Positions 17,283-62,953 of a stretch of DNA of 64,000 bases are shown piece by piece. Both the position numbers and the translations under genes were made by a program. Origin of the DNA: an uncultured Gammaproteobacteria bacterium (GTDB lineage Bacteria; Patescibacteriota; Microgenomatia; Woykebacterales; RBG-16-39-9b); contig OZ246414.1 in NCBI GenBank assembly GCA_965231125.1, positions 827,239-891,238 of the forward strand, written 5' to 3'. Position 1 is the stretch's first letter. Every line of letters starts with the position of its first letter. The notes under the pieces were generated by a model, which saw only the letters and a list, made by a program, of their open reading frames with translations, was not told the DNA's origin and made no database searches.

Positions 17283-17339
17283 CTTATCCCCAGTTTCTAA
17301 CCTATAACGTTAAGGACTGTCCTTGGAGTTATAGGATAA

Positions 17340-18446: not shown

Positions 18447-18504
18447 AATTAACGTTTGATTATAGAACTTTTTAGCCTCGATTTATCGAGGCGCAAGCGA
18501 AGCA

Positions 18505-32268: not shown

Positions 32269-32345
32269 GCAGCCATTTTAGAAAAAGATTCAGGGAAAAA
32301 GCAATAGGTTATTTTAACTAAACAAGGGGAGGAGTTCTTTACTAA

Positions 32346-32756: not shown

Positions 32757-32865
32757 AGATTAGCCATTAGAAAGTTAGCCACTAGAAAATTTAATAGATA
32801 CTAGAGACTAAACTTTATTTATTTGTGGTAAAAAAAGGAGTTTCCTAGATTACAGATGATCCGTG

Positions 32866-35661: not shown

Positions 35662-35687
35662 AAGTCTTTATAACGTGGGGGGGTTTG

Positions 35688-35716
35688 ACAACCACTGATA
35701 TAGTAATATAATTAAG
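35688..35716 (+). promoter_or_regulatory. Consensus promoter (TTGACA-17-ATAATT/TATAAT) for giant gene 1. A TATGCA...TGCATA palindrome lies just downstream (35728-35751).
   Basis: gtttgacaaccactgatatagtaatataatta read directly. Confidence 0.5.
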
Positions 35717-35758
35717 GTAGTTTACCTATGCACAGGTTAAGCGATGCATAGATAAGAT

Positions 35759-49336: not shown

Positions 49337-50161
49337 TTAGTAAAAAATTATGACCAGCGAAAGTCCTAGTCCAGCAACGGCCAAAAACACAATTGCTCCG
49401 AGATTCAAGAACATACTTGAAAAGATTGTTCCTTTAGCCAATGGGTTTCGACCTATGGCAACAATACTTGTGCGCAGCGCCCGAGCGGCAAAAATAAAAC
49501 CTAAGATAAAAGAAGCGCTCCCCACTACAAATGCGAAGAGATAGCGTATAAAAAACTCGAGTCCGCGCGGCTGCGAAAGAGTCTCTGAGGTTACCGCTGT
49601 AATTTTATCAAGTACATTTTTTAAATTTGCCGCGCCAATCCTATTTTGGTACTGAATATTAATGAAAACCGGTATGGTACCTACCCCTTCACCACTGTAA
49701 GAAGCTGATGCTTTACCAATAACCATACCTTCATGGGTTGCCTTTTCCCCAACCCCAGCTTGGTCCGACGAAGTTATGAAATCCCCAACCTCAATATTTC
49801 CGGCTGCTGCCGAAACCCTCACTTCGGCTTCCCCTTGAGAAATAACTGGTACAGTAGTTTTTGTTTGAACATTAAGTACTGCCGCTGGGTCCTGGACCGC
49901 TACGCCAAATATGTTTTGGTCGTACTCACCGGTAGATCTAACTATTTTGCTGTCGGTTGTTAAAGATAGTATATCCCCGGGTTGGATATTTTTGTCATCG
50001 ACTTCAAAGTTTTTAGCAATTTGCCCACCGGTTAAAACTTGCGCGAAAACAAAAGAATGGTTAAGACGCAGGGACGCGACCAGAACAAGACTTATTAGAC
50101 TAACAAACTTGACTCCACTAGTTAATTCAGGCAGGTTATTTAGCTTCAATCGGGCAAACAT
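49337..50161 (-). CDS. Fusion protein: signal peptide, then the extracytoplasmic domain shared with both giant proteins, then a C-terminal F-ATPase c-subunit-like helical hairpin that lacks the conserved carboxylate.
   Basis: The C-terminus LRTSIVAIGRNPLAKGTIFSSMFLNLGAIVFLAVAGLGLSLVIIFY aligns with c-subunit SRTIEGIARQPE...[22 protein letters not shown]. A Val/Asn sits at the Glu/Asp position. The gene occupies the atpE position of the operon. Confidence 0.55.
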   Translation of the reverse strand: MFARLKLNNLPELTSGVKFVSLISLVLVASLRLNHSFVFAQVLTGGQIAKNFEVDDKNIQPGDILSLTTDSKIVRSTGEYDQNIFGVAVQDPAAVLNVQTKTTVPVISQGEAEVRVSAAAGNIEVGDFITSSDQAGVGEKATHEGMVIGKASASYSGEGVGTIPVFINIQYQNRIGAANLKNVLDKITAVTSETLSQPRGLEFFIRYLFAFVVGSASFILGFIFAARALRTSIVAIGRNPLAKGTIFSSMFLNLGAIVFLAVAGLGLSLVIIFY

Positions 50162-50268
50162 TGCTCCCCTGTCACGGGAAATGTGCTCCTTAAAATTATA
50201 AATCTCACATTTCCTCTATCTATATGTTACTAAAATTTACTCAATCTTTAAAATCCTACCTGTAGAAA

Positions 50269-50297
50269 CTTGACAATCAGCCACAACTGTCTCATAA
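50269..50297 (+). promoter_or_regulatory. Consensus promoter (TTGACA-17-CATAAT) for giant gene 2
   Basis: cttgacaatcagccacaactgtctcataat read directly. Confidence 0.5.
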
Positions 50298-50367
50298 TTT
50301 TAATTAGAATTTCCCGTAACGAGAAACTTTTCTCCTTAAGGGAAAGTCTAATTAACTAACCCTGCCC

Positions 50368-53300
50368 ATGGGAACCGAAAATAGTCTAAAAGCCGAATCT
50401 TTACCAAAGGCGGAAGAGAACCAAAAACTTTTACCATATCCCGAAGTCATAAAGCTTGCTAAACAAGCTGGTGTTGATTTTGGGAAAGGCTACCCCTACA
50501 ATAGGCTGCGCTACTACACAAAGATAGGTTTGCTACCCAAAGCCCACCGCCGCTCTTTCGGAGGTCCAGCTGAAGGATGCTACCCATCTTGGGTTGTTGA
50601 CAAATTAATTGAAATCGACAGGCAGCTTAAACAAGGCCAATCAGTCCAATCAATCCTTAGACAAAAGTCGAGTACACCATCATTAACCAATGCTTTATCG
50701 CCCGCTCCCATCTCTTTATACGAAAACCGAAAAATAGCTAACCAAGAGGATTTCGCCCAGTCTACAGATTTCGGGATTGGTGAGCAGTCGACCTACACTG
50801 AAAGTTCAGCAGGTGCTCTCGACTTCATCAGACGTGGAGCTTTATATCTTGGTTTGATGTCAATAATTTTCGTCTCTGGACTCGCAACTGTTTACGAAAT
50901 GCCGCAGAGTCATGACAATGTTCAAAGCCTAGTGAACATTGCAAAAAATAAGTTTTTTGGAACTTATTCACCGAAAAATCTGATCGCTCTCCCAAACCAA
51001 ATCGGAAGTGTGCTGGGACGCACCACCGCCCCTTATTTCAAAGTAAACGTTCCGACCGAAATTACCCATCTGCTCAGTGCCTTTGGTGGAATCAAAACAA
51101 ACGGCGCCAATGCGAATTTAGGGAAAGGTAAACTAACCGCCTCAAACGTTATTTACGATGTCCTTCCTGGCACTAATGTCAGCATCTCTTCTGGTCAAAA
51201 GCCGACCATTTCCGTTTCTGGACTAATCGGATCGGTAAATGGAACTGCCGGAAGAATTACTTCTTCGGGTGGGGACAATCCAACAATTGATATTGCCAGC
51301 AACTATACTGGCCAGACTTCAATCGATACTGTCGGAACAATAGGGAGCGGCGTGTGGCACGGATCCCCCCTTACCGATCCTTATGTTTCCAACAACATTA
51401 CTGTTTCAAACTATTTGCCCCTCTCCGGAGGAACTTTAACCGGTTCTTTGACCTTAAACAACAATGATGGTGGTAGCGGCGATGTTAACTTAATCCTTGG
51501 AGATTCCAACGAATCGGGAGACATAGTTCTTAATAACAGTGGCTTTACTGGCGCTATAACTTCTGGAGCGCTAACTGCGGCAAGAGTCTGGACTCTACCA
51601 AACGAGACCGGCACCATTTGCACCACTACAAGCGGTTGTGGAGCCGCTGGAGTTTTATTCGATATCGCTGCTGATGCTGGTGCAAATCAAAGCGTTACCG
51701 CCGGAGACACCGTTACTCTTACCGGTGGGGCGGGAATCAGTACTTCGGTTGCTGCTGGACCGACGGCAACTTTTGATGTAAATACTGGTAACGGGGTTCA
51801 GATATCGGCAGATGCGGTTGCTTTAGGTCCGTTGACAGCCGATTGGGACCAAACTGGAGCCTTCAATATCTACCTAGACAACGCGGGCAGCAACCTACAG
51901 ATCAGAGAAAACGGTGGCGGAGCCGACAAAGGCATTTTTGATGTTGCCTCGATTGCTGGCGACCAAACTTACACTTTTACAACCGGCGGCACAGTTTGGA
52001 CTTCCGGAAATGATGGCTCCGGTTCTACCTTAGATGCTGATACTCTTGATTCATTGGATTCTTCTCAATTTCTTAGGTCGGATACTTCGGACAGCTTCAC
52101 CTCCGGAACCTTAACCTTTGACAATGGGACTACTCTAACAGTAAATGGGGTCGCCAATATTGGGGATGGTGGGGATGCGGTTGCAATTTCTGGCACGACA
52201 GTCTCGGTAACCGCCAATGGGGCCGGTAATGATATAACTTTGAATTTGGTTGACAACAACACCGATGCCCTAGACATTAAACAGGGCGCTGATAACTATA
52301 TCAATATAAATACTACCAATACAACAGAAAATATCTCGTTCGGTAACGCTGCCACTAACCCCACCTACTCTTTTCTGGGAAGTGGTACAGCTACTTTCTC
52401 TGGAGCAACTACAGTCACTGGTACCCTAACCGCTAACGGCTCCTTTGTAGCCAACAACACCTTCACCTTAGGAGATGGTGGGGACACTGGATCAATCAAC
52501 ACTTCGGATTGGGCCGTGTCAACAACTGGAGACATGACTGGGATTGGAAGTATTGGGGCTGACGGGGATATAACCACTTCCCAAGCGACCCCGTCTGTCT
52601 TTTTGACGGACACAACCGCGGCTTCGGATGATTATTCAATTAACGCTGACGCTAGTACTTTTACCATCCGTAACGAGACAGATGCCAGGGACGATGTCAG
52701 CATTGATGGGTCTGGAAATGTAACTCTAAATTCGGTGGGATCCTTTGGAAACGGCACCTGGTCTTTCTCTTCGGCTGGAGCACTTTCCGGTGTAACCACC
52801 ATCTCAACTTCTTCAACGATAACTTTAGGCGCTCTTGGGGCGACGGATACCACCACTTTGCTTTGTCGTAACTCTGGAAATGTGATTGCCGGTTGTAACA
52901 GCGGTTCTGGTTCTGGACAGGATGCGGATCTTTTGGACGGTCTAGATTCTTCACAATTCCTAAGAAGTGACACTTCGGATAACTTTACCTCTGGTACTTT
53001 AACTACAGATGCTGGAACCACCTTGGCAGTTGCCGGAGATTTAACCATTGCTGATAATAATATTCCTCTGACTGGTGGAGACACTACGATTGACTTGAAC
53101 GCGGCGGCTACGAGAACTTTAACTATTACTAACTCAAATGGCGCGAATGTTGCTAACTTATCTGTCGAAGGCACTGCCACAGCTGCCGATTTCTCCTGTA
53201 GCGATTGTATCGCTTTAACGACTGAAACCTCCGGTGACTATGTTGCCAATGTCGACACGAGTGTATTAACAGGACTAACTGGAGGTTCGGCAGGTTCGGA

Positions 53301-56300
53301 AGGCGCCTCTTTAAGTTTGGCTTTTGATTATTCTCAAGCCCTTTCCGGAGATGTCGGTTTAGGAGCCAACGCCGCCGTCTTCGGCCAATCAGGTTTTGTC
53401 TTCGAAGGCGCGACCGCAAATACCTTCGAAACTTTTCTGGCGGTGACCGATCCAACCGGCGACCGAACCATCACTTTTCCGGATGCTGGCGGGACTGTCT
53501 GTCTTAGTGGCCAGACTTGTGCAACCAGCGGAACTGTCGGTTATTGGAGTCGGACTAGCACAGCTCTTTCACCAGCAACCGGGGGAGATACTGTGGATAT
53601 GGCGGGCGCCATAATAAGTAATATTGGAAATACTGCAACAGATTTTGACACGGGCGGTGGTCTTACGCTGGCGGGTAATCTCGTCGTCCAAGGGACCACG
53701 GGGCTTACCTTTAATACCGGTGCGGGAGGGGACATTACTTTTGCCAACGGCGAGAAGATTGATAACGACACAGATGGCACCGTTGCCATCACTGGTAACG
53801 GATCAATTTCCGGCCACGCGGCAATCGGCGGCTCTGCCAGCATCAGCACCGCCTATTTACTTACCATTCAAGAAACTACTTCAGTTGCTGGCTCGCGCGG
53901 TATTAATTTGGCCCCGACTTTCAACCCGAGCGCCAGCACCATTGATATTTCTTTCAATAACATTCCTACCTTTAGCCCTACCGGTGGGATAACACATACA
54001 GTCGAAGGCCAATACAATAAGATAACTGTTGGAGGTTCTGCGACAATTCCTGTCGCTTATGGCGTGGCAATAGACACGCCGACTATCTCCGGTAGTACTG
54101 TGACGAATTTGTACGGCCTTTACGTTGCAAACCAAACCGGCGCGACGAACAACTACGCTGCGGTTTTTGCTGGTGGCAATGTCGGCATCGGCACCACTGC
54201 ACCAAATCAACTGCTCCATCTCTCATCTTCTGGTAGCCCTGCAGAGCAGTTCACCAGCACGGCTGCTCCAAGCCAAGGTGCCAATGGTGGTTCTACTTTC
54301 AGCGACGATTCCTCTATCGGGACAGTTACTTGGGGTAGCCCATCGAATGCGCAGACAAATGATGCTAGTTATGCCAACGCCACTCTTGCCAGTACTGAAA
54401 TTTCTCACTATCTCAAGGCAACTGATTTCGCTTTCACTGTTCCGGCCACCGCCACGATAACAGGGATTTCTGTTAGTGTGGTCAGAAAAATAAGTGGCGG
54501 ATGCTTATGCATCCTTACGGACAACTCCATAAAGTTGGTAAAAGGCGGAACTATCAGCGGAGATAATAAAGCAGACACCGGTACAGCCTGGACTACCTCC
54601 GATGTCACCGCCACCTACGGCAACAGTAGCGACCTGTGGGGACTTTCCTTAGCCCCTAGCGACGTCAACGCGTCAAACTTCGGTGTAGCTGTCTCTGCTA
54701 CAAATACCATTGGTAGTGCCATCGACGCCGACATTAATTACATCAGCATCACTGTCTACTATACCTATAACAGCTGGGTCGCTGGTCTGAACACAAGTGA
54801 CAGCGGCAACTTCAATATTTCCAATTACACTGCCTTTGGTACAAATGACTACTTTAGAATAGGCTCCTTTGGCAATCTTGCCGTCGGTGCTGGCGCCGGC
54901 AGCGGCAACCTTGTAAACCAAGGCCTTTTTAGCTACCCAACCTTTAGCGGCGGAGCTACCAGCTGTGCGTTTGGATGTACTGGAGTATTTGGGAAAGGAA
55001 AAATAGACAACACCAGCAATAATAATATCGTTATCGGGGTCGGCGGTCAAGTTGAAACTGCCGCTACTTCCTTTACCCTAACCAATGCTATCGCACTTTT
55101 TGCTAACTCGCCTCTTAAAGGCTCTGGGTCCAGCATCACTAATAGTTACGGATTGGATGTCCAAAACCAGGATACTGTGGGGGTAACTACAAGTTATGGA
55201 GTATATATTGAAAATCAGACCGGCACTGGCACTAATTACGGCCTTTATGTTGTTGGGGCCGACACTGACGCTATTTACACCGCTGCCGGATCTAATAAAT
55301 TTGTCTTCGCGACGGGAGACAATTTTTCCATCGATGCCAGTACCACCGCCCAGACTCAAACAGCTGGTACTTTAGATCTAAATATCAACGCCGGCAACGC
55401 TACCGTCACTGGTCTTAATGTAGATTTCATTGCCAACACGGGTATCACTGCCGCGACGGACGAAGTTGGAGCAAAAATTAATCTTACTCAAAACGATGCC
55501 AATGCGGATATGTTCGGTCTGCAAATTAATCAACTAGCGACTTCAGTAACTATCGGTGGTGGAGACTTAGTTGAATGTTTACTTTGTTTAGATAATGCTG
55601 AGAACCAAGCCGCGGCAGTGACAGATGCAATCAGAATCACCAACTCAGGTGGGACTGCAAATGCCATTACTAATGATATTAATCTGCAAAATGGAGAGAC
55701 AATTGATAACAAAACCAACGGTACTATCGCGCTCACCGCAACCACCACCTCACTTTCCGGAGTTCTTTCAATCGATGGTACTTCCGGCACAGCTATTAGC
55801 GTAACAAACACTGGAATCACAACTGACATCAGCCTGCAAAATGGAGAGACAATTGATAATAATACAGATGGAACCATTTCTCTTGGCACTACCACAACTT
55901 TAACTGCAAGCGGTGCTTTAACCATATCAACTGGCAGCAACGGAGTCCTGACTCTTTCCCCCAACGGAACTGGCAATGTAGTGATCAGCGGAACAACTAC
56001 TGGTATAAACTCCGCTCTCGATGTGACCAAAACCACTTCCAGCTGCGGGTTTGGTTGCTTTGGTGTTTTAGCACGTCCTCTTTTTACTACTACCGAGTCG
56101 ATTGCCAACGCTGTGGGTGGGCAGATCCGTACCAATACTGGGGCGGCCCTAACAACGGCCAGTGCCTTACTTGCTGGGGGCCCCAACATAACTGCTGGAA
56201 CCATCACCACTGCAAATGGTTTGTATGTACAGAGTCAGGGCAGCGCCTCAACCACGACAGCAATTGGAATCTACCTTGAACCAATGACGGGATCAACAAA

Positions 56301-57495
56301 TAACTACGGAATTTGTTTTGATTGTGATGGAACTTTTGGCACGCAAACAGTCGCTTCTGGAATCCGCTGGGGTACAGATGGCACTGCGGCCAACAATATT
56401 AATGCCTATCGAAGTGCCAACGGCCAGTTTACTATTGACAATGGAACCCCAACAACCCTTTTCCAAGTTAGTACCACCGCGAACTTATTAAATTTGGACG
56501 ACACGACTTCCCGTACTGAAAGGCTTTGCCACGGCGCAGGAAATGGTGGCACCGGAACTGCCGCAATTTCTGATTGTTCTGGAACCCCAGGAGATTACGC
56601 CGAGCAATACGGCACCTCCGACCCGTCAATTGAAGCCGGAGACCTTGTGGTTGTAGATACAGACCAGCCTGCCCAAACAATAACAAATAAGGACGGTCAG
56701 GTTGGTTCGAAAGCTTGGGTTTTGAAATCTAGTGAAGCCTACCAAACAAGCTTAATCGGAGTTGTCTCGACAAGTCCAAACGAAGTAATCGGTCAAAACT
56801 TTACCAATGAAGAAAATCCAAGACCAATCACCCTTAGTGGCAGGGTGCCGGTTAAAGTTTCCACTGAAAATGGACCTATTGAGGCCGGAGATCCTATCAC
56901 GAGCTCATCAACTCCCGGAGTTGCGATGAAAGCCACCGCGTCGGGACCGATCATCGGTAAGGCGTTGGAGCCCTACAACGAATCTGGAGTTGGAAAAATA
57001 ATCGCCATTATCCAGGTGGGCTGGTACGTTGCTCCTCTAGGTAGCGGGCAAGAGTCTGGGCAATCCAGCATCACTGGCGTTACCGACCTGGCTCTTAATA
57101 GCTTAACTGCTAATACAATAATTTTAGGCAGCAATCAAATTTCTTTAGATCAATATGGGAACCTTCAAATTAATGGTAACTTGGCTCTTTCTGGAAATGA
57201 GCAGATTAGTGGAAACTTAGACCTAACTGGTAGCCTAACCGCCTCTTCAATTAATACTGGTGAGTTGAAGATTTCCGATAAGTCGTCCGGCTCCTCGTCA
57301 ATTAACGCTGGGGGAAGCACGGTAATAATAAATAACAACGTAGTAACTGGCAACTCAAAGGTTCTTGTGACTTTTAACTCCGACTGGGCTCCGGCAGATA
57401 GGTTCTGGGTTTCGAAAGCTTCTGGTAGTTTTATAGTCCACGTTGATAAACCTGTCTCTACCAGAGCAAATTTTGATTGGATAGTTGTTAATTAA
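50368..57495 (+). CDS. Giant (2375 aa) membrane protein. It has an N-terminal cytoplasmic MerR-type HTH, one TM helix, a huge Gly/Thr/Ser/Asn-rich extracellular region and the same conserved C-terminal domain as giant protein 1.
   Basis: MerR-like N-terminus (NRLRYYTKIGLLPKAHRRSFGG). TM GALYLGLMSIIFVSGLATVY. C-terminal ENGPIEAGDPITSSSTPGVAMKAT domain. Recurrent ...TGTVCLSGQTC / TICTTTSGCGAAG motifs shared with giant 1. Confidence 0.8.
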   Translation: MGTENSLKAESLPKAEENQKLLPYPEVIKLAKQAGVDFGKGYPYNRLRYYTKIGLLPKAHRRSFGGPAEGCYPSWVVDKLIEIDRQLKQGQSVQSILRQKSSTPSLTNALSPAPISLYENRKIANQEDFAQSTDFGIGEQSTYTESSAGALDFIRRGALYLGLMSIIFVSGLATVYEMPQSHDNVQSLVNIAKNKFFGTYSPKNLIALPNQIGSVLGRTTAPYFKVNVPTEITHLLSAFGGIKTNGANANLGKGKLTASNVIYDVLPGTNVSISSGQKPTISVSGLIGSVNGTAGRITSSGGDNPTIDIASNYTGQTSIDTVGTIGSGVWHGSPLTDPYVSNNITVSNYLPLSGGTLTGSLTLNNNDGGSGDVNLILGDSNESGDIVLNNSGFTGAITSGALTAARVWTLPNETGTICTTTSGCGAAGVLFDIAADAGANQSVTAGDTVTLTGGAGISTSVAAGPTATFDVNTGNGVQISADAVALGPLTADWDQTGAFNIYLDNAGSNLQIRENGGGADKGIFDVASIAGDQTYTFTTGGTVWTSGNDGSGSTLDADTLDSLDSSQFLRSDTSDSFTSGTLTFDNGTTLTVNGVANIGDGGDAVAISGTTVSVTANGAGNDITLNLVDNNTDALDIKQGADNYININTTNTTENISFGNAATNPTYSFLGSGTATFSGATTVTGTLTANGSFVANNTFTLGDGGDTGSINTSDWAVSTTGDMTGIGSIGADGDITTSQATPSVFLTDTTAASDDYSINADASTFTIRNETDARDDVSIDGSGNVTLNSVGSFGNGTWSFSSAGALSGVTTISTSSTITLGALGATDTTTLLCRNSGNVIAGCNSGSGSGQDADLLDGLDSSQFLRSDTSDNFTSGTLTTDAGTTLAVAGDLTIADNNIPLTGGDTTIDLNAAATRTLTITNSNGANVANLSVEGTATAADFSCSDCIALTTETSGDYVANVDTSVLTGLTGGSAGSEGASLSLAFDYSQALSGDVGLGANAAVFGQSGFVFEGATANTFETFLAVTDPTGDRTITFPDAGGTVCLSGQTCATSGTVGYWSRTSTALSPATGGDTVDMAGAIISNIGNTATDFDTGGGLTLAGNLVVQGTTGLTFNTGAGGDITFANGEKIDNDTDGTVAITGNGSISGHAAIGGSASISTAYLLTIQETTSVAGSRGINLAPTFNPSASTIDISFNNIPTFSPTGGITHTVEGQYNKITVGGSATIPVAYGVAIDTPTISGSTVTNLYGLYVANQTGATNNYAAVFAGGNVGIGTTAPNQLLHLSSSGSPAEQFTSTAAPSQGANGGSTFSDDSSIGTVTWGSPSNAQTNDASYANATLASTEISHYLKATDFAFTVPATATITGISVSVVRKISGGCLCILTDNSIKLVKGGTISGDNKADTGTAWTTSDVTATYGNSSDLWGLSLAPSDVNASNFGVAVSATNTIGSAIDADINYISITVYYTYNSWVAGLNTSDSGNFNISNYTAFGTNDYFRIGSFGNLAVGAGAGSGNLVNQGLFSYPTFSGGATSCAFGCTGVFGKGKIDNTSNNNIVIGVGGQVETAATSFTLTNAIALFANSPLKGSGSSITNSYGLDVQNQDTVGVTTSYGVYIENQTGTGTNYGLYVVGADTDAIYTAAGSNKFVFATGDNFSIDASTTAQTQTAGTLDLNINAGNATVTGLNVDFIANTGITAATDEVGAKINLTQNDANADMFGLQINQLATSVTIGGGDLVECLLCLDNAENQAAAVTDAIRITNSGGTANAITNDINLQNGETIDNKTNGTIALTATTTSLSGVLSIDGTSGTAISVTNTGITTDISLQNGETIDNNTDGTISLGTTTTLTASGALTISTGSNGVLTLSPNGTGNVVISGTTTGINSALDVTKTTSSCGFGCFGVLARPLFTTTESIANAVGGQIRTNTGAALTTASALLAGGPNITAGTITTANGLYVQSQGSASTTTAIGIYLEPMTGSTNNYGICFDCDGTFGTQTVASGIRWGTDGTAANNINAYRSANGQFTIDNGTPTTLFQVSTTANLLNLDDTTSRTERLCHGAGNGGTGTAAISDCSGTPGDYAEQYGTSDPSIEAGDLVVVDTDQPAQTITNKDGQVGSKAWVLKSSEAYQTSLIGVVSTSPNEVIGQNFTNEENPRPITLSGRVPVKVSTENGPIEAGDPITSSSTPGVAMKATASGPIIGKALEPYNESGVGKIIAIIQVGWYVAPLGSGQESGQSSITGVTDLALNSLTANTIILGSNQISLDQYGNLQINGNLALSGNEQISGNLDLTGSLTASSINTGELKISDKSSGSSSINAGGSTVIINNNVVTGNSKVLVTFNSDWAPADRFWVSKASGSFIVHVDKPVSTRANFDWIVVN

Positions 57496-57531
57496 ATCGG
57501 TTGACAGACCGCGGGCCGTTTATGTAGACTA

Positions 57532-59769
57532 ATGAGGTTACAAATGAGAGAACAATATTCTAAAATCGCGAGTCAAATAATAAATATTGGCGCTGTCGCC
57601 ACCGTATTCATTATTCCACTACTTTTTATTCCACTGCCACAAGATCTCAACAACACTCGCCTCTTTGCGGAATTTAATAAAGAAATTGCGTTTGTACTTG
57701 TTAGCTTTACGCTCTTTACACTTTGGACTATTAAAATGGTTCTGGACAGAAAGGTAACAATAATCCGCACACCGATAGACTTACCCTTAATCGTCTTCTT
57801 CCTTATTTATATATTAGCGACTGTCTTTAGCAGCGACCCATTCGTCTCAGTAGTCGGTTACTACGGAATTTTTCACCCTTCTTTGGTAAGTATGCTCGCT
57901 TTAATCTTGTTTTACTTTACAGCCGTCTCTAATTTGAGCCCAAAGACTCGTATTTGGGCGCTTGGTTGCCTAGTTGTGTCGATTGGAATAGCCTCCCTTG
58001 TAGCAATTATTCATTACTTCGGCATTTTTATAACCCAATACAAGGTTGCCCAATCCCGCGACTGGACTCCTATTATCTCTCCTGGTACGTTGGCTTTTTT
58101 GGCTTCATTATCGGTGCCGATAGCCGTTGGTCTTGCCGTAGCCGCCAAAAACTTTTGGGTGAAGTTAGGTTGGCTTGTTGCCGGCATAATTATTTTCGGT
58201 TCAATATTAATAGTAAACTCTTTTGGCGCCTGGATTGCCCTGTTTGCCGGCCTCTTAACTATTTTATTTTTTGCCCAAGGAGTTGTTAACCGCGCCGAAA
58301 ACCGTCTTACCCTTGGAGCAGCTGCTATCGTGGCTATCGTTCTATTTGCGGTATCCATGACACCGTCTTTAAAAGGCAGCATTATTAAACCACTCATTCG
58401 CGGTAACGATAAAACCTTATTATTAAACGCGGAAAAACGACTTCCAGTAGATGACAGCTGGCAAATTGCTGTTTCTAGTATCGGTAACAAGCCTTTTTTG
58501 GGTTACGGACCAGGAACATTTCCATTTGTATTTACAAAATTCTCCCCTATTTCTATGAATCAAGGTTCGGATTGGAATGTTCGCTACGAACAAGCTTCAA
58601 ATGAATACGCAAACACTTTATCCACCCTAGGGTTCTTAGGTTTAGCGGCTTATTTAGCCGTCCTGTTTTTCCTTTTAAGATCGCTAGTTAATTTTTGTTT
58701 AAGAAGTTCCTCGCTTAAAGATAATCCCATGCCGGTATTTCTTCTTTCTTCTCTAATAGCCTTCGCAGTTGGAAGTTTATTTTTTGATACGAGTTTGGTA
58801 ATCGGAATGTTATTCATACTTGTTAGCGCGGCCGCTTTCTCAACCCTCTTCAACTTAGGTACCGAAGGAGTTGACAAAGTAAACTTAAAATTGGTTTCCC
58901 TCAAATCCGGTGTAGTTGGTTACGGCTCAGAAAACCCAAGTAACAATTTGCTCGGGTTTATTTTATTAGTACCCTGCCTGGCTATTACTGCCGCTGCACT
59001 TTACTTCGGAATAAGATCGTATCAAGCGGAACTTTCTTACCAACGCTCCGTTATTTCGGCATCCAAAAATAATGCTAAAGAAACAAGAGACCTTCTTGTT
59101 TCTGCTATTAAGGAGTTTAGTTTCAGAGACATCTACCACCGAACTCTTTCTTTAGTAGATATTAGAATCGCCCAATCGTTAAGTAGACAAACCCAGACTG
59201 ATCAAAACAAGACAAATATTCAACTTCTCGTAAGCGAGTCTGTCGCTCAAAGTAGAATCGCTACTGGCTACCAAAACCCGCCCGTACCAGGAACAAGTAG
59301 TAACAACGTTGTTAATTGGGAATCTTTAGGAGTTGTCTATTCAAGTTTGATTGACGTTGTTAAAGGTACAGGAGATCAAACAGTTATTGTATACCTTCAG
59401 GCGAAAATATTATTCCCCAGAAATCCCGCTCTTTATCAGTCTTTAGGAAACGTTTATTTAAAAATCGGTAAGACCCAAGATGCCATTAGGGCCTTGGAAA
59501 CGGCTGTTTCCCTGAAGAACGATCTTGCTTTTTCCCATTACTCACTAGCGCAGGCGTACGAAAAGGCCGGCAACCGCCAAGACGACGCCCTGAAGGAGTT
59601 AGAGGCGGCTTTTGGTCTGCTACCGGAAGGATCAGATAAGCAAAAAGTCCAAGGTGAGATAGATACCTTGAAAAAAGAGATTGGTAATAACCTAAAGCAA
59701 CTAACCCCAACTGCCTCTACCACGGCGACCCCTTCCGCCACGGCGACATCCTCCGCAAAACCAAAGTAA
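57532..59769 (+). CDS. O-antigen ligase/polymerase-like (Wzy_C) polytopic membrane protein with C-terminal TPR repeats
   Basis: About 12 TM segments with a large loop, and C-terminal TPR-like helices (AIRALETAVSLKNDLAFSHYSLAQAYEKAGN). Confidence 0.6.
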   Translation: MRLQMREQYSKIASQIINIGAVATVFIIPLLFIPLPQDLNNTRLFAEFNKEIAFVLVSFTLFTLWTIKMVLDRKVTIIRTPIDLPLIVFFLIYILATVFSSDPFVSVVGYYGIFHPSLVSMLALILFYFTAVSNLSPKTRIWALGCLVVSIGIASLVAIIHYFGIFITQYKVAQSRDWTPIISPGTLAFLASLSVPIAVGLAVAAKNFWVKLGWLVAGIIIFGSILIVNSFGAWIALFAGLLTILFFAQGVVNRAENRLTLGAAAIVAIVLFAVSMTPSLKGSIIKPLIRGNDKTLLLNAEKRLPVDDSWQIAVSSIGNKPFLGYGPGTFPFVFTKFSPISMNQGSDWNVRYEQASNEYANTLSTLGFLGLAAYLAVLFFLLRSLVNFCLRSSSLKDNPMPVFLLSSLIAFAVGSLFFDTSLVIGMLFILVSAAAFSTLFNLGTEGVDKVNLKLVSLKSGVVGYGSENPSNNLLGFILLVPCLAITAAALYFGIRSYQAELSYQRSVISASKNNAKETRDLLVSAIKEFSFRDIYHRTLSLVDIRIAQSLSRQTQTDQNKTNIQLLVSESVAQSRIATGYQNPPVPGTSSNNVVNWESLGVVYSSLIDVVKGTGDQTVIVYLQAKILFPRNPALYQSLGNVYLKIGKTQDAIRALETAVSLKNDLAFSHYSLAQAYEKAGNRQDDALKELEAAFGLLPEGSDKQKVQGEIDTLKKEIGNNLKQLTPTASTTATPSATATSSAKPK

Positions 59770-59896
59770 CCTCTATTGAGCTAAGTATAATACTTGTGAT
59801 AAAATTGGCGCGAGTTCGTGGGCCTGTGGCGCAATAGACTGCTTCGCATTCTGCGACCACTTTGTGGACTATTGCTAGCGCAGCCCCGTAAAATTT

Positions 59897-59972
59897 GGGC
59901 CCATGGCTCAATTGGTAGAGCGCTTCCATGGCATGGAAGAGGTTGCCGGTTCAAGTCCGGCTGGGTCCACCA
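59897..59972 (+). tRNA. tRNA-Ala (GGC)
   Basis: Acceptor GGGCCCA/TGGGTCC (G3:U70 present). Anticodon loop AUGGCAU. T-arm GGTTCAAGTCC. CCA encoded. Confidence 0.7.
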
Positions 59973-59978
59973 AATTTG

Positions 59979-60019
59979 TACGGGGAGGTTAGGGGTTCGA
60001 GTCCCCTCAGTTCCACCAG
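59979..60019 (+). other. tRNA 3'-half fragment (T-arm AGGGGTTCGAGTCCCCT plus acceptor 3' strand plus CCA) with no 5' half
   Basis: Only 41 nt. No D-arm or anticodon arm upstream. Confidence 0.4.
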
Positions 60020-60167
60020 GCCACTACGTTTCGCAAAGCGAAACTACGCGGCCTGCTCCGCGAAGCTTTAGCGTAGTGGGGTACACTTCGCTCTTAGAGC
60101 TTCGCGTGGCACAGCCAAAGAGGGGCGAGAAGTAAGAAGTGTGCTCCGCAAAAAGTAAATCTTTTTA

Positions 60168-60243
60168 GGGCCTGAAGTTTAACTGGTTGAACACCTCATT
60201 CGCATTGAGGAGGTAGGCGGTTCGATTCCGCCCAGGTCCACCA
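60168..60243 (+). tRNA. tRNA-Ala (CGC)
   Basis: Acceptor GGGCCTG/CAGGTCC with G3:U70. Anticodon loop UUCGCAU. T-arm GGTTCGATTCC. CCA encoded. Confidence 0.7.
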
Positions 60244-60248
60244 AAGCT

Positions 60249-60290
60249 ACTAGGTTGAGGAGGTAGGCGGTTCGACCCCACCCCAGCTGC
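60249..60290 (+). other. Partial duplicate of the tRNA-Ala(CGC) 3' portion (ttgaggaggtaggcggttcga...)
   Basis: 21 nt identical to tRNA positions 37-57, then diverging. No acceptor. Confidence 0.4.
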
Positions 60291-60472
60291 ACTGACTCCT
60301 CGAGATTTTAATATATTTATATATCTTTGTTAATAAATTGATATACTCTGTTCTTTAACTCGGAGTGGTTTAGTATATCAATACTAATCAAACTAGAAAT
60401 TTTTATTCCCCTACAGCTTACTAGAGTTTCCGCAGAGAATTTTGTTTTTTTAACTCAATACTATATAATATA

Positions 60473-62953
60473 ATGAGAATGCTTATAGGATTATACCGAC
60501 GGAAAACTAAATTTTTCACTTTAGTATCCACTTCTGTCGTCATCTTTGCCGTTGTATTAGGGTTTTTATTTATTAAATCTTTAGAGAGGCATCCTTACGC
60601 CTTCGGTCAGACTTCCGATGCTACACCATACGGGCTTGATCTACTCCAAAATCCGGAAAAAATAGCTTACCTTAGGCCACTTGTAAAAATAGGTAAAGTC
60701 TCTAGTCATGCCAAAGACGGCTACAATAAAGACTCAGGTATATCAGATGACAACGGACAAGAAACTTACCTATACAAAAACGGTTCTAACTACGTGCTTC
60801 TAGACGAAAAGGGCCCAGGCACAATTACCAGACTCTGGTTTTATTTGTTCCCGGATGGAGTCTCCCCTGATGGAACAGTATTTAGTAATTATAAAAGCTA
60901 CAGATTAAAATTCTTTTTCGACGGCGAAACAACTCCACGAGTAGACAAAACTTTAGACGAGATATTCTCCGGGACCCAAAGCCCATTTCTGTCTCCTTTG
61001 GTCGGTAATGCAAACACAAGCTCAGGAGGTTCCTACTCTTATGTGCCGATGAGTTTTGCAAAATCCGTCAGGGTCGAAATCACAGGCATGCCCTATTATT
61101 ACCAGATAGATTATGAGAAATACGATTTAACTGTACCTGTTACCACATTTACACCAAGTATTGACGTTTCCGCGGTTGTTAATAAATGGAGTAACGCCGG
61201 AACCCAAGACCCCAAATCTTTGAGCGGAACTGTAATGACAACTTCTGGAACAATTGACAGCAATAATCCTTTAAAAAAGGGCGATACCCTGCAAATTTTT
61301 AACCAGACGGGCTCGGCTGTCATTAAATCAATAGTCTTCACAGTTCCGGGATACTCGGATCCCAGCGATTCCACTTCAAGAGATGTCTTCATGAATATGC
61401 GTATAAAAGGAACCTGGGATAATAATTCGCAGCCCAATATTGACGTACCCTTCGGTTCGTTCTTTGGTACCTTTTTAGGTAAAACAAACACTAAAGGCCT
61501 CTTCTTTGGCTCTGATCCGCAGACAGGCAGGCTTTATAACTATTACCCGATGTATTTTGCCAACTCGGCAAACCTCTCGCTTGTCAACAACAGCCAGTCG
61601 GATATTTCGGGAATTTCATACCAAATAGAATACATCCCACTTACTTCAATTGATGGACTCGGCACTAAAATCGGTTATTTTAACGCCACCTATAACCAGG
61701 AAATTCCAGTTACCCCCAGCGTGGATTTTAAAATGGCTAACCTTTCGGGGCGTGGCCAAATTGTCGCTAACACCCTGTATATTAAATGCTGGTCTCTGGA
61801 CCAACCAACATGGCAATTGCATCATTCTTGCCTTGAAGGTGACGAAAGATTTTATATTGATGATTCAAAATCTCCAGATACGTACGGAACTGGCACAGAA
61901 GAATTTTTTAATGGCGCCAATTATTTTATACTAGGACCATTTAACCGACCTACCCACGGCGATAACTACCAATTTACTAAATATAATTCAAGTCCAACAA
62001 CTTTCGATGGTTACGGCGAAGATTCTGCCTGGCGTATCTTTGCGGTTGATCCAATACCATTCCGCTCAAATATATTGATGGGTATCGAACACGGGAATCC
62101 TTATAAATACGGCACTATAGAATTACCAGGCTGGAACCAAAAAAGCACATATCCTGGCAATTATTACAGTACAGTATTTTGGTATGGTACCAATGCTGCA
62201 GACCTAAACCCCGTTGATTCACTTGATGTCGGAAACTCCCAAAGCCAGACAAGCCACTTGTACAGTGCGGGCGCGTCTGCAAATATCCCATCTCAAACAT
62301 TTTTCTATGAGGGTGATAACGATGAAGTGCCTGTTTCCGATGACGGCCAGTCAGGCACAGGAAAAATAACATTCAAGATGAATGTTGATTCTGGAAAGGC
62401 TCATGTACTTCGCCGAAGATTTGACCAGTCTATAAGAAACCAAAGCGCTGAAGTAAGAATAGATGGCGTGAGAATTGGGACATGGTACGATGCAGGAAGA
62501 AATTCCGTACTCAGATGGAAAGAAAGTGAAATGTTCATTCCGGCAATTCATACCCAAGGTAAATCCCAAATTACAGTCCAAGTTACCCCCAACCCTGGAT
62601 CAACGTGGACCACCTTTCGTTATGATCTATTTTCAATTCCCTCTACATCTCCACAAAACTTATCCGACTTTGACCTCGATGGCTTTAGTGACACTTTAGA
62701 AACCTACCTTGGGACCAACTCTCAAAGTGATTGCTCATTAAACTCAAGTACCGATGCCTGGCCACCAGATTTTAACCGTGATGGTAAAGTTTCAGTAGCC
62801 GATATAGATGCTGTGAAACAAGCCTACGGCAAAAACTCATCATCGGCCGACTGGTCTACAAAATATAAGAGGCTTGATCTTGTCCAGAACGGTTCAATCA
62901 CCATTGCCGATATAATGGCCGTAGTTAATCTTTACAATCGATCCTACTGTTAA
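60473..62953 (+). CDS. Secreted 826-aa protein with an N-terminal signal anchor and a C-terminal thrombospondin-3-like/dockerin-like Ca-binding module
   Basis: The C-terminus DFDLDGFSD...DFNRDGKVSVADIDAV...DLVQNGSITIADIMAVV is a duplicated dockerin-type F-hand. The central domain is unassigned. Confidence 0.7.
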   Translation: MRMLIGLYRRKTKFFTLVSTSVVIFAVVLGFLFIKSLERHPYAFGQTSDATPYGLDLLQNPEKIAYLRPLVKIGKVSSHAKDGYNKDSGISDDNGQETYLYKNGSNYVLLDEKGPGTITRLWFYLFPDGVSPDGTVFSNYKSYRLKFFFDGETTPRVDKTLDEIFSGTQSPFLSPLVGNANTSSGGSYSYVPMSFAKSVRVEITGMPYYYQIDYEKYDLTVPVTTFTPSIDVSAVVNKWSNAGTQDPKSLSGTVMTTSGTIDSNNPLKKGDTLQIFNQTGSAVIKSIVFTVPGYSDPSDSTSRDVFMNMRIKGTWDNNSQPNIDVPFGSFFGTFLGKTNTKGLFFGSDPQTGRLYNYYPMYFANSANLSLVNNSQSDISGISYQIEYIPLTSIDGLGTKIGYFNATYNQEIPVTPSVDFKMANLSGRGQIVANTLYIKCWSLDQPTWQLHHSCLEGDERFYIDDSKSPDTYGTGTEEFFNGANYFILGPFNRPTHGDNYQFTKYNSSPTTFDGYGEDSAWRIFAVDPIPFRSNILMGIEHGNPYKYGTIELPGWNQKSTYPGNYYSTVFWYGTNAADLNPVDSLDVGNSQSQTSHLYSAGASANIPSQTFFYEGDNDEVPVSDDGQSGTGKITFKMNVDSGKAHVLRRRFDQSIRNQSAEVRIDGVRIGTWYDAGRNSVLRWKESEMFIPAIHTQGKSQITVQVTPNPGSTWTTFRYDLFSIPSTSPQNLSDFDLDGFSDTLETYLGTNSQSDCSLNSSTDAWPPDFNRDGKVSVADIDAVKQAYGKNSSSADWSTKYKRLDLVQNGSITIADIMAVVNLYNRSYC

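What the first reader, a model, noticed from the sequence alone, without database searches (positions are those of the whole stretch)
50269..59769. Giant protein 2 (MerR-HTH plus TM plus 2100-aa extracellular) co-oriented with a Wzy_C/TPR O-antigen-ligase-like gene
The 745-aa O-antigen-ligase-family membrane protein starts 37 bp after giant gene 2. It carries C-terminal TPR repeats, a combination seen in protein O-glycosylating (PglL/PilO-like) ligases. The giant protein is extremely Thr/Ser/Asn-rich. A dedicated ligase could glycosylate the giant surface protein. The glycosyltransferases at 14318-18446 could supply the glycan.
Basis: inference. Interest (0 to 1): 0.55.

Follow-up and report, generated by a model that had tools for sequence, protein, structure and literature searches.

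The report
Tethered regulator-fibre and glycan-ligase cassette
A giant surface-fibre protein with a DNA-binding domain on its cytoplasmic end sits beside a membrane enzyme that transfers sugar chains, and this gene pair and its own 17-bp control site recur in dozens of ultra-small (CPR) bacteria, which points to a regulator and its target rather than simply an enzyme and its substrate.

Summary
ORF 50368-57495 encodes a 2,375-aa protein: a MerR-like HTH, one TM helix, and a Thr/Gly/Ser/Asn-rich ectodomain. A Wzy_C+TPR gene follows, most likely starting at 57544 rather than 57532.

The pair is a conserved cassette. In 40 of 46 informative loci (Woykebacteria, WWE3) a homologue of gene 1 directly precedes the ligase. 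In most species gene 1 is only about 220 aa: HTH, TM and a small tailspike-like beta-sandwich. The S/T-rich giant part is therefore a lineage-specific insertion, not the reason for the linkage.

The ligase has its own conserved promoter (TTGACA-18-TAGACT, 57501-57530), so it is at least partly a separate transcription unit.

A 17-bp palindrome, TTTCCCGTnACGrGAAA, occurs only inside this cassette in the related loci. In WWE3 it lies at helically phased distances upstream of the ligase promoter. In Woykebacteria, including the window (50310-50345), it lies at the giant gene's promoter.

My best reading is that gene 1 is a transmembrane transcription regulator, here fused to a phage-tail-fibre-like stalk, and that it controls a WaaL-fold glycan transferase with an external TPR domain.

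Dedicated O-glycosylation of the giant remains possible but has no direct support. There is no PglL_A motif and the catalytic His is not conserved.

The parts
49337..50161 (-). Divergent 274-aa membrane protein with a beta-tulip / IMC-like domain related to giant 2 aa 2073-2219. It is syntenic with the giant gene in all Woykebacteria-type loci.
   Evidence: BLASTP 31% identity over 147 aa, E 5e-14. Weak Pfam Phage_cement_2 / XM1_gp53 hits. Synteny.
50165..50181 (.). Weak third copy of the cassette palindrome (3 mismatches), just upstream of the divergent 274-aa gene.
50270..50298 (+). Promoter-like site TTGACA-17-CATAAT for giant gene 2 (11 of 12 consensus positions).
   Evidence: The same arrangement is present in orthologous loci.
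50300..50355 (.). Two copies of the cassette palindrome TTTCCCGTnACGrGAAA (50310-50326 and 50329-50345). Together they form a 27-nt inverted repeat lying between the -10 box and the start codon. Candidate operator; alternatively a 5'-UTR hairpin.
   Evidence: 3 matches in the window against 0.34 expected. Inverted repeat. RNA fold -22.5 kcal/mol, z -6.0. Present upstream of the giant gene in all 12 Woykebacteria-type loci.
50368..57495 (+). Giant gene 2, 2,375 aa, a single-pass membrane protein.
   Evidence: Orthologues of 1,698 to more than 3,400 aa.
50443..50658 (+). Cytoplasmic atypical MerR-like winged HTH (aa 26-97). The motif GVDFGKGYPYNRLRYYTKIGLLP makes this the best-conserved part of the family.
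50836..50895 (+). Single TM helix (aa 157-176). Arg-Arg lies on the N-terminal side, which indicates an N-in orientation.
50938..56574 (+). T/G/S/A/N-rich stalk that varies between orthologues and carries phage-tail-fibre motifs such as TLDADTLDSLDSSQFLR. It is absent from the ~220-aa homologues.
   Evidence: PHROG tail-fibre hit at aa 550-587. Composition. Variable middle region. No long internal repeats.
56575..57033 (+). Beta-tulip domain (aa 2070-2222) that begins with the motif D-Y-A-E. It resembles the phi29 gp12 C-terminal autochaperone and phage decoration proteins, and is shared with giant 1.
   Evidence: 42% identity to giant 1. AF2 pLDDT about 90. Foldseek 3gqh E 6.5e-4 and 8pkh E 5.8e-4. 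Homologues hit Peptidase_G2 IMC.
57271..57492 (+). Terminal beta-sandwich (aa 2302-2375), tailspike / K1-lyase_C-like. Besides the HTH and TM this is the only ectodomain part shared with the small homologues.
   Evidence: Homologues hit Pfam K1-lyase_C.
57501..57530 (+). The ligase's own promoter, TTGACA-18-TAGACT, inside the 48-nt gap. No terminator-like hairpin is present in the gap.
   Evidence: The same promoter precedes the ligase in L001, L003, L005, L006 and 37 WWE3-type loci.
57544..59769 (+). Wzy_C-fold glycan transferase with an external TPR domain (741 aa from the likely start; the first in-frame ATG is at 57532).
58183..58656 (+). Pfam Wzy_C region (aa 218-375), including the large external loop with conserved E301, W310, GxGPxTF, N343, W348, R351 and N357-E358.
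59074..59703 (+). Helical TPR solenoid (aa 515-724), placed outside the cell by the extra 13th TM helix (aa 473-511).
   Evidence: The topology is inferred.
59704..59766 (+). S/T/A/P-rich C-terminal tail (TPTASTTATPSATATSSAKPK), present in Woykebacteria-type orthologues.

Best explanation
The two genes form a conserved regulator-enzyme cassette of Microgenomates-type CPR bacteria (Woykebacteria and WWE3/Katanobacteria).

Gene 1 encodes a single-pass membrane protein with three conserved modules: a cytoplasmic atypical MerR-like winged HTH, one TM helix, and an external phage-tailspike-like beta-sandwich. In this lineage a ~1,900-residue tail-fibre-like stalk and a phi29-gp12-like beta-tulip module have been inserted between the TM helix and the beta-sandwich. 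That insertion makes it a 2,375-aa surface fibre.

Gene 2 encodes a 13-TM, WaaL-fold (Wzy_C) enzyme whose catalytic loop and C-terminal TPR solenoid both face outward. By family it transfers a polyprenyl-diphosphate-linked glycan onto an extracytoplasmic acceptor. That acceptor cannot be lipid A-core if the cell is monoderm, as I assume from general knowledge of CPR bacteria; I did not test this here.

The genes are separately promoted. I infer that the 17-bp palindrome TTTCCCGTnACGrGAAA, which in these genomic regions occurs only in this cassette, is the operator of gene 1's HTH. Gene 1 would then be a transmembrane transcription regulator working on ToxR/CadC-type logic. In WWE3 it would act on the ligase promoter from an upstream, helically phased position. 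In Woykebacteria, including this window, it would act on its own promoter.

Shown: the anatomy, the conservation of the pair, the ligase promoter, and the distribution and phasing of the palindrome. Inferred: DNA binding by the HTH, the enzyme's chemistry and acceptor, and the topology.
For: Conservation of the pair. 40 of 46 loci with a complete gene 1 and enough downstream sequence have a co-oriented ligase directly downstream, with gaps of 36-332 nt. The pair persists where the flanks differ (L060, L026, L038, and Woykebacteria against WWE3).

Minimal form of gene 1. The ~220-aa version has the HTH, the TM and a ~95-aa ectodomain whose last ~60 aa match giant 2's C-terminus. The HTH is the most conserved segment. 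Small homologues hit Pfam MerR_1 and are annotated as MerR regulators.

Palindrome specificity. In 898 kb of related loci there are 48 matches with 2 or fewer mismatches, and all lie inside the cassette. 30 are in the gene1-ligase gap. 2 lie directly upstream of an inverted ligase (L041, L054). 14 lie upstream of giant-type gene 1. 2 lie about 0.5 kb inside gene 1. There are none in loci that lack the ligase, and none in Uhrbacteria or other loci without the HTH.

Phasing. The distance from the palindrome to the ligase -35 box falls in classes of 5-8 nt (29 loci), 16-18 nt (6) and 26-27 nt (2), about one helical turn apart. In 28 of 37 loci the -35 box ends 29-30 nt before the ATG, which fits a leaderless transcript.

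Pattern-first check. In a metagenome scan, 12 of the 13 hits that carry a cassette gene have the palindrome 0.2 kb or less upstream of the HTH or ligase gene. These include HTH genes with no adjacent ligase.

Enzyme. Wzy_C scores above the Pfam cut-off. The AF2 model has pLDDT 85.8 and pTM 0.84. The membrane domain matches WaaL 7tpg_B at E 1.6e-5 over 455 columns.

Precedent. Transmembrane transcription regulators are a recognised, widespread class and 56% are single-pass (PMC10269533).
Against: There is no experiment, and no direct evidence that this HTH binds DNA or binds this palindrome.

The HTH is atypical. It has an insertion in the turn, and in giant 2 itself it is below the Pfam threshold.

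The position of the site is not that of classic MerR operators, which lie in a 19-20-bp spacer. Here it lies upstream of -35 or downstream of -10.

In this window the ligase promoter has no palindrome, so a regulatory link to the ligase is indirect here.

The window's two palindromes also fold into a very stable hairpin, so an RNA-level role is possible.

In Uhrbacteria a homologous fibre without an HTH precedes a distant ligase homologue. That hints at a link through the ectodomains rather than through regulation.

A 2,000-aa ectodomain is unprecedented for a one-component regulator.

The palindrome is not unique globally. 107 of the first 120 metagenome hits have no cassette gene nearby, probably chance matches in a very large collection.
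Confidence: 0.5

Rival explanations
1. The Wzy_C/TPR protein is a dedicated protein O-oligosaccharyltransferase, like PglL, TfpO or WsfB. Its substrate is the product of the upstream gene. The TPR domain recruits that protein and the enzyme decorates its ectodomain with a lipid-linked glycan. This can coexist with the regulatory model.
For: The gene order target then OTase, co-oriented and close, matches pilin-tfpO and comP-pglL pairs; 21 of 31 PglL homologues lie next to pilin genes (PMC3643930). WsfB and PglL have Wzy_C plus a C-terminal TPR (PMC2943079). Both the TPR and the catalytic loop are predicted to face outward. What is shared by the WWE3, Woykebacteria and Uhrbacteria partners is a membrane anchor plus the terminal beta-sandwich, not the HTH. 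Giant 2 is 24% Ser+Thr. Woykebacteria ligases themselves end in S/T/A/P-rich tails.
Against: None of 18 family members hits PglL_A at E<=1, and no NCBIfam ligase model matches. The residue aligned with WaaL H338 / PglL H349 is S/Y/F, though the alignment is weak. The minimal partner has an ordinary, folded 95-aa ectodomain with no low-complexity acceptor region. The most conserved part of the partner is cytoplasmic. In 4 species the partner persists with no ligase nearby and in 2 the ligase is inverted. The genes are separately promoted.
Confidence: 0.2
2. The enzyme works on a non-protein acceptor. It could be a TacL-like ligase that puts a teichoic-acid-like chain on a membrane glycolipid, or a Wzy-like polymerase of lipid-linked repeat units. 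The TPR would then be a scaffold for envelope assembly, and gene 1 would be at most its regulator, not its substrate.
For: Wzy_C proteins in monoderm bacteria include the lipoteichoic acid ligase TacL (PMC5727136). The WaaL/PglL catalytic His is absent while basic residues are kept (R/K281, R/K336, R351). From my own recollection, not checked here, this resembles Arg-dependent Wzy polymerases. A WecG/TagA-type glycosyltransferase and two GT4 genes lie in the window next to MreB. Distant ligase homologues sit next to MreB/MreC/PBP2. The ~750-aa architecture is a large family with 3,834 clusters, which suggests a housekeeping envelope role.
Against: No Wzx flippase, Wzz or initiating phosphoglycosyl transferase was found among the window ORFs I scanned, although not all ORFs were scanned. 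The TPR fusion is reported for protein-directed OTases. Nothing here identifies any acceptor.
Confidence: 0.4
3. The palindrome acts at the RNA level, as a hairpin terminator or attenuator after gene 1 in WWE3 and as a 5'-UTR structure in Woykebacteria. The HTH domain is then not a transcription factor for it. It might instead be a cytoplasmic anchor or nucleoid tether for a surface protein, and the adjacency of the two genes would be inherited synteny.
For: The window's double palindrome folds at -22.5 kcal/mol with z -6. In WWE3 the element lies just after the stop codon of gene 1. In L003 and the window the outer arms differ but still pair. The whole WWE3 block from ArgRS to Sortase is strongly syntenic. 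Giant 1 has a different HTH type on a similar fibre.
Against: The sequence itself is conserved, including the would-be loop and both arms, where a structural hairpin would be expected to covary freely. No U-tract follows it. The roughly 10-bp phasing relative to the -35 box is a DNA-level property. The element moves with the ligase when the ligase is inverted, so it no longer lies after gene 1 (L041, L054). It lies upstream of HTH genes that have no ligase nearby. Rfam finds nothing.
Confidence: 0.12

Closest known systems
Transmembrane transcription regulators (ToxR, TcpP, CadC; TTR class of PMC10269533)
   Same: A single polypeptide with a cytoplasmic DNA-binding domain, one TM helix and an external domain. 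A candidate operator lies upstream of the -35 box of a neighbouring target gene, with helical phasing.
   Different: The DNA-binding domain is MerR-like rather than OmpR-type winged helix. The external domain is a phage-tailspike-like beta-sandwich, and here it is extended by a ~2,000-aa fibre. DNA binding has not been demonstrated.
MerR-family regulators (MerR, CueR, HspR)
   Same: The N-terminal helix-turn-helix plus wing carries the (R)LRYY..(I)GLL signature, and the target is palindromic.
   Different: There is an insertion in the turn (DFGKGYPYN). There is no C-terminal coiled-coil or effector domain; a TM helix takes its place. The site is not inside an overlong 19-20-bp spacer.
Dedicated O-oligosaccharyltransferase-target pairs (pilA-tfpO/pilO, comP-pglL(ComP); PMC3643930) and the S-layer OTase WsfB (PMC2943079)
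   Same: A Wzy_C-domain membrane enzyme is encoded just downstream of, and co-oriented with, a surface-protein gene. WsfB and PglL also have a C-terminal TPR.
   Different: There is no PglL_A motif. The catalytic His is not conserved. The genes have separate promoters. The partner is a bitopic HTH protein rather than a pilin or S-layer protein.
WaaL O-antigen ligase (PDB 7TPG)
   Same: It is the best structural match for the membrane domain. It has the same 12-TM core with a large external loop between TM9 and TM10.
   Different: No relationship is detectable by sequence against the PDB. The lipid A-core acceptor would be absent if the cell is monoderm, which I assume but did not test. This protein has an extra TM13 plus a TPR domain. 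The equivalent of H338 is missing.
TacL (S. pneumoniae lipoteichoic acid ligase) and Wzy polymerases
   Same: Both are Wzy_C-domain enzymes acting on Und-PP-linked glycans at the outer face of a membrane. TacL works in a monoderm cell.
   Different: They are about 400 aa and have no TPR. No teichoic-acid or Wzx/Wzz genes are adjacent here.
Phage phi29 gp12 pre-neck appendage (Peptidase_G2 IMC domain; PDB 3GQH, 3SUC) and tailspike / depolymerase C-terminal domains (K1 lyase 7W1C, Sf6, Pam1)
   Same: The C-terminal 300 aa of giant 2 combine a beta-tulip module that begins D-x-A-E with a terminal beta-sandwich, as in fibre or spike proteins with C-terminal autochaperones.
   Different: This is a cellular protein anchored by an N-terminal TM helix. 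Foldseek E-values are only about 1e-3. Autoproteolysis was not tested. Pfam hits occur only in homologues.

Membership tests
Wzy_C superfamily (Pfam PF04932; WaaL/Wzy/PglL fold) | Match to the Wzy_C model above the curated cut-off | tested here: met
   39.6 bits against a cut-off of 31.7, E 5.5e-10, aa 218-375. 9 of 18 family members also match.
Wzy_C superfamily (Pfam PF04932; WaaL/Wzy/PglL fold) | Polytopic 12-TM core with a large external loop, and fold similarity to a solved member | tested here: met
   AF2 pLDDT 85.8. Foldseek WaaL 7tpg_B E 1.6e-5, 455 columns, TM-score (target) 0.55.
WaaL O-antigen ligase | Catalytic His (E. coli H338) and Arg215/Arg288 in the external loops | tested here: not met
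   The local hhalign match LH338NE aligns with (S/Y/F)356-N-E. No His is conserved anywhere in the family alignment. R/K281, R/K336 and R351 are conserved, but their equivalence to the WaaL arginines is unproven. The alignment is weak overall (probability 0.25).
WaaL O-antigen ligase | Lipid A-core acceptor (an outer membrane with LPS) | not tested
   CPR bacteria are generally described as monoderm and lacking LPS. This is my own knowledge; the genome was not surveyed here.
PglL-type protein O-oligosaccharyltransferase | PglL_A motif (Pfam PF15864) that separates PglL from WaaL | tested here: not met
   None of 18 family members hits it at E<=1. The motif is defined in PMC3643930.
PglL-type protein O-oligosaccharyltransferase | Essential His349 / Arg224 / Arg298 | tested here: not met
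   The His is not conserved. The arginines are inconclusive.
PglL-type protein O-oligosaccharyltransferase | Transfer of a lipid-linked glycan to Ser/Thr of a protein | not testable with these tools
   Needs glycoproteomics or reconstitution.
WsfB-like S-layer O-OTase (Wzy_C + C-terminal TPR) | Wzy_C domain followed by a C-terminal TPR domain | tested here: met
   Pfam TPR models match aa 627-700 and a helical solenoid spans aa 515-724. The architecture is described in PMC2943079. No sequence comparison with WsfB was possible.
Wzy polymerase | Wzx flippase and Wzz co-polymerase in the same locus | tested here: inconclusive
   None were found among the window ORFs scanned, but not every ORF was scanned and such genes can lie elsewhere.
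Transmembrane transcription regulator (TTR) | A recognised DNA-binding domain and at least one TM segment in the same polypeptide | tested here: met
   TM at aa 157-176. The HTH is homologous to small proteins that match MerR_1. In giant 2 itself the hit is sub-threshold.
Transmembrane transcription regulator (TTR) | Sequence-specific binding to an operator at a target promoter | not testable with these tools
   A candidate operator was found: a cassette-specific, phased palindrome. Binding was not tested.
MerR family | C-terminal dimerisation helix and effector-binding domain, and an operator within a 19-20-bp -35/-10 spacer | tested here: not met
   The HTH is followed by a linker and a TM helix. 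The promoters have 17-18-bp spacers and the palindrome lies outside the spacer.
Peptidase_G2 / phi29 gp12 intramolecular chaperone | Match to PF11962, and autocleavage | tested here: inconclusive
   Giant 2 has no Pfam hit. Homologues P0110 and P0147 do hit (E about 1e-7). Fold match to 3gqh E 6.5e-4. Cleavage cannot be tested here.

The most novel reading that the evidence does not exclude
The 2,375-aa phage-tail-fibre-like stalk is the sensory input of a transmembrane transcription factor. Contact or tension at the tip of the fibre, for example attachment of this presumably episymbiotic CPR cell to a host, would be relayed across a single TM helix. The relay could work by oligomerisation, or by regulated proteolysis that frees the HTH. 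The signal would reach the palindromic operator and switch expression of the fibre and of the surface-glycan transferase. That would be a one-protein adhesin, receptor and transcription factor. Giant 1 in the same window has the same HTH-TM-fibre plan, which suggests the design is used more than once.
Probability: 0.15. Interest if true: 0.85.

Novelty: new variant of a known kind. Interest (0 to 1): 0.6.

Why it matters
CPR/Patescibacteria are a large, mostly uncultured part of bacterial diversity. Their cell-surface biology and gene regulation are almost unexplored.

This cassette offers three concrete things:
1. A predicted transcription factor-operator-promoter triplet for these organisms, directly testable by EMSA or a reporter. 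It includes a conserved TTGACA-18-TAnACT promoter that appears to give leaderless transcripts.
2. A case where a small membrane-tethered regulator has been turned into a giant tail-fibre-like surface protein while keeping its DNA-binding end.
3. A defined Wzy_C+TPR enzyme family (thousands of clusters) in organisms thought to lack LPS, whose acceptor is unknown.

If the fibre really signals to the HTH, it would link host attachment directly to transcription. If the ligase glycosylates the partner, it would be, to my knowledge, the first protein O-glycosylation system defined in CPR bacteria.

Tried and rejected
- Exact-sequence look-up of the 745-aa ligase failed, because the database copy starts at the second ATG.
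I used the HTH alignment A2 instead.
- PDB sequence searches with the whole ligase or its profile returned only TPR proteins. A TM-only profile returned nothing at E<=10.
- hhalign of the family profile against E. coli WaaL was not significant overall. I used only the local HNE/xNE motif match, with caution.
- NCBIfam gave only TPR-type hits for the ligase.
- Rfam found nothing in 49900-60600 except the two tRNAs.
- BLAST of giant 2 against itself found no long internal repeats.
- Distant ligase homologues P0018 and P0021 have unrelated upstream genes, so the pairing does not extend to the whole Wzy_C+TPR family.
Most were in unrelated contigs with GC 0.3-0.7. It cannot establish global specificity, and only the 13 cassette-bearing hits were informative.
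- The Lipocone preprint and the TTR survey's single 'MerR' hit, which was an author name, gave nothing specific.
- I considered the 274-aa divergent gene to be ATP-synthase subunit a and rejected that. It carries the fibre-type beta-tulip domain.

Full report
**Observation**

The window is from a CPR bacterium related to Candidatus Woykebacteria; the closest named ligase homologue is P0007.

ORF 50368..57495 (+) encodes 2,375 aa. ORF 57532..59769 (+) encodes 745 aa, 36 nt downstream. It coincides with a strong promoter-like site, TTGACA-17-CATAAT, at 50270-50298.

The ligase most likely starts at its second ATG, 57544. Homologues align from query residue 5. The database copy is 741 aa. A GAGG lies 5 nt upstream of that ATG.

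Giant 2 is T 13.8, G 12.8, S 10.4, A 9.8 and N 8.0 % and has one TM segment at aa 157-176.

Pfam finds nothing on the whole protein. The N-terminus alone gives a sub-threshold MerR hit.

The ligase matches Wzy_C above the cut-off and has C-terminal TPRs.

**The pair is a conserved cassette, and the giant part is an insertion**

Orthologous ligases of 50-54 % identity in other Woykebacteria-type contigs are preceded by orthologues of giant 2 of 1,698-1,862 aa. The flanks are the same: an ATP-synthase operon on the minus strand upstream and Obg on the minus strand downstream.

Between orthologues only the first ~350 aa and the last ~420 aa are conserved. The middle is variable.

A ligase homologue of only 28 % identity is preceded by a 218-aa protein. 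It has the same HTH (43 % identity, E 2e-17), a TM helix, and a C-terminal ~60 aa matching the very end of giant 2.

I scanned one genome per species with the HTH domain. This returned 56 loci, from Woykebacteria, WWE3/Katanobacteria and MAGs carrying other or clearly wrong labels.

With my own ORF calls and HMMs, 40 of 46 loci with a complete gene 1 and enough downstream DNA have a co-oriented ligase directly downstream, with gaps of 36-332 nt. In two loci the ligase is nearby but inverted. In four it is absent.

Gene 1 is about 220 aa in all WWE3-type loci and is giant only in Woykebacteria-type loci. The small proteins are very uniform. They have an ~85-aa HTH with an invariant PYNRLRYYTKIG motif, a TM helix near aa 105-125, and a ~95-aa ectodomain with ordinary composition (S+T about 19 %).

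So the Thr/Ser/Asn-rich fibre is not what ties the ligase to this gene.

**What giant 2 is made of**

Small homologues hit Pfam MerR_1 and are annotated as MerR regulators.

The stalk carries a phage tail-fibre motif (PHROG tail-fibre hit, aa 550-587).

The C-terminal 418 aa have hundreds of relatives across CPR lineages. Some of these hit Pfam K1-lyase_C (the terminal beta-sandwich) and Peptidase_G2 IMC (the region beginning D-x-A-E).

An AF2 model built on 25 sequences is confident for two domains: aa 2070-2222 and aa 2302-2375. Foldseek matches them, at E about 1e-3, to phage decoration beta-tulips, to the C-terminal fragment of phi29 gp12, and to tailspike or depolymerase C-terminal domains.

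Giant 1 in the same window (35759-43504) has the same plan but with canonical MerR-type HTHs. It shares only the beta-tulip domain with giant 2 and has no ligase next to it.

**What the ligase is**

The AF2 model (pLDDT 85.8, pTM 0.84) shows a 12-TM core with a large loop at aa 289-357, a 13th TM helix at aa 473-511, and a helical TPR solenoid at aa 515-724.

If the conserved loop faces outward as in WaaL, the odd number of TM helices puts the TPR outside too. The basic N-terminus fits an N-in orientation. This topology is inferred.

Foldseek links the membrane part to WaaL 7tpg (E 1.6e-5). All other hits are to TPR proteins such as OGT and SPINDLY.

By sequence nothing in the PDB is detectable. 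No family member hits PglL_A, Wzy_C_2 or O-antigen_lig in Pfam, and NCBIfam gives only TPR hits.

The family alignment has invariant P29, N49, K50, D83, W310, G326, F330, N343, W348, G367 and G370. E301, R351 and N357-E358 are nearly invariant. There is no conserved His. The E. coli WaaL LH338NE motif lines up with (S/Y/F)-N-E. H338 in WaaL and H349 in PglL are reported as functionally important (PMC3643930).

The membrane-domain family is large, with 3,834 clusters at 50 % identity, and typically about 650-830 aa long. The Wzy_C+extension architecture is therefore common, not special to this locus.

**A separate promoter and a cassette-specific palindrome**

The 48-nt gap contains TTGACA-18-TAGACT (57501-57530) and no terminator-like hairpin.

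The same promoter precedes the ligase in every related lineage. That includes loci where another gene has been inserted between giant and ligase: a Peptidase_S8 gene in L001 and a bAvd-like gene in L006.

In 28 of 37 WWE3-type loci the -35 box ends 29-30 nt before the ATG. This is the geometry of a leaderless transcript.

Just upstream of that promoter, WWE3-type loci carry the 17-bp palindrome TTTCCCGTnACGrGAAA. Its distance to the -35 box falls in three classes: 5-8 nt (29 loci), 16-18 nt (6) and 26-27 nt (2). The classes are one helical turn apart.

In 898 kb of related loci all 48 matches with 2 or fewer mismatches lie in the cassette:
- in the gap;
- directly upstream of the ligase where it is inverted (L041, L054);
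- upstream of giant-type gene 1;
- or about 0.5 kb inside gene 1 (two cases).

Loci without the ligase, or without the HTH, have none.

In Woykebacteria-type loci the palindrome is not in the gap but at the giant gene's promoter (12 of 12 loci). In the window there are two adjacent copies (50310-50326 and 50329-50345) right after the -10 box, and a weak copy at 50165-50181. That is three matches against 0.34 expected, and none elsewhere in the 64 kb.

In 12 of the 13 hits that carried a cassette gene, the palindrome lay 0.2 kb or less upstream of an HTH or ligase gene. Some of these were HTH genes with no ligase nearby.

The conserved sequence, the DNA-level phasing, and the way the site travels with the HTH or ligase genes argue for a protein-binding operator. 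The adjacent HTH is the obvious candidate. This last step is an inference.

**Interpretation**

I read gene 1 as a transmembrane transcription regulator. This is a recognised and widespread class (PMC10269533), here with a MerR-like DNA-binding domain. I read the ligase as its neighbouring target, or as a co-regulated gene.

In this window the regulator has acquired a ~2,000-aa tail-fibre-like ectodomain, and the operator sits on its own promoter.

The enzyme's acceptor is unknown. Three candidates remain:
- a protein, as for WsfB and PglL;
- a glycolipid, as for TacL;
- a growing glycan chain, as for Wzy polymerases.

One observation keeps a physical link between the ectodomains alive. A homologous fibre without an HTH precedes a distant ligase homologue in Uhrbacteria.

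Its stated rationale (S/T richness, an operon, PglL likeness) is mostly not borne out.

**Verdict**

The finding is real and more interesting than a simple adjacency. I rate it a new variant of known kinds, combining a TTR with a Wzy_C/TPR transferase. All mechanistic steps remain computational inferences.

Noticed in passing
window 59897-59972, 60168-60243, and about 59975-60020 / 60245-60290; gene 60473-62953: Two tRNA-Ala genes follow the ligase, with tRNA 3'-end-like fragments after each. A DUF2961+dockerin gene (826 aa) lies between the ligase and Obg only in this genome; in relatives the ligase is followed directly by Obg. This looks like an insertion at a tRNA site.
   Followed up: partly
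window 49337-50161 (-): A 274-aa membrane protein transcribed divergently from giant 2 carries the same beta-tulip domain as the giants (31% identity). It is syntenic in all Woykebacteria-type loci, between the ATP-synthase operon and the giant gene. It is not an ATP-synthase subunit.
   Followed up: partly
window 35686-35759 and 35759-43504: Giant 1 (2,581 aa) has two canonical MerR/HTH_17 domains, a TM helix (aa 195-225), a fibre, a beta-tulip and a terminal beta domain. Its promoter (TTGACA...TATAAT) is followed by a different inverted repeat, TTACCTATGCA-N12-TGCATAGATAA (35722-35755), just before the ATG. That parallels giant 2's promoter-palindrome layout.
   Followed up: partly
L006 9205-9597, L007 1321-1713: In a relative, a 130-aa gene with a bAvd / 23S_rRNA_IVP domain sits between a giant of more than 3,064 aa and the ligase. 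bAvd is the accessory protein of diversity-generating retroelements, which hints that some of these fibres may be DGR targets.
   Followed up: no
L001 1917-5591; window 8656-13149 (-): A Peptidase_S8/FG-GAP/dockerin gene is inserted between giant and ligase in one relative. The window has a similar S8/FG-GAP/fn3 gene (1,497 aa) elsewhere.
   Followed up: no
L017-L063, upstream of the ~220-aa HTH genes: In WWE3-type loci the HTH gene has a TATAAT box 6-8 nt before its ATG, which fits a leaderless transcript. In 17 of 48 loci there is a second, different palindrome, TCTA-N7-TAGA, overlapping the -35 and spacer region (shuffled mean 1.1, maximum 6).
   Followed up: partly
window 59704-59766 and orthologues P0002-P0012: Woykebacteria-type ligases end in a short S/T/A/P-rich tail that is predicted to lie outside the cell. 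This is the kind of low-complexity segment that O-glycosylation systems often modify.
   Followed up: no
L068, L069; window 14318-19509: Distant Wzy_C+TPR homologues lie beside MreB/MreC/PBP2. In the window the WecG/TagA-GT4 cluster lies beside MreB. This hints at a link between these envelope glycan genes and the cell-elongation machinery.
   Followed up: no
window 27984-35661 compared with the WWE3 loci: The ArgRS / metallo-beta-lactamase / ComEC block that precedes the HTH-ligase cassette in WWE3 lies upstream of giant 1 in this window. The ATP-synthase operon then separates giant 1 from the giant 2-ligase pair. The two giants may therefore descend from a rearrangement or duplication at the ancestral cassette site.
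   Followed up: no
L003 5419-5435, L011 10185-10201: A perfect or near-perfect copy of the cassette palindrome lies inside the giant gene, about 0.5 kb from its start, in two relatives. There is no equivalent in the window.
   Followed up: no
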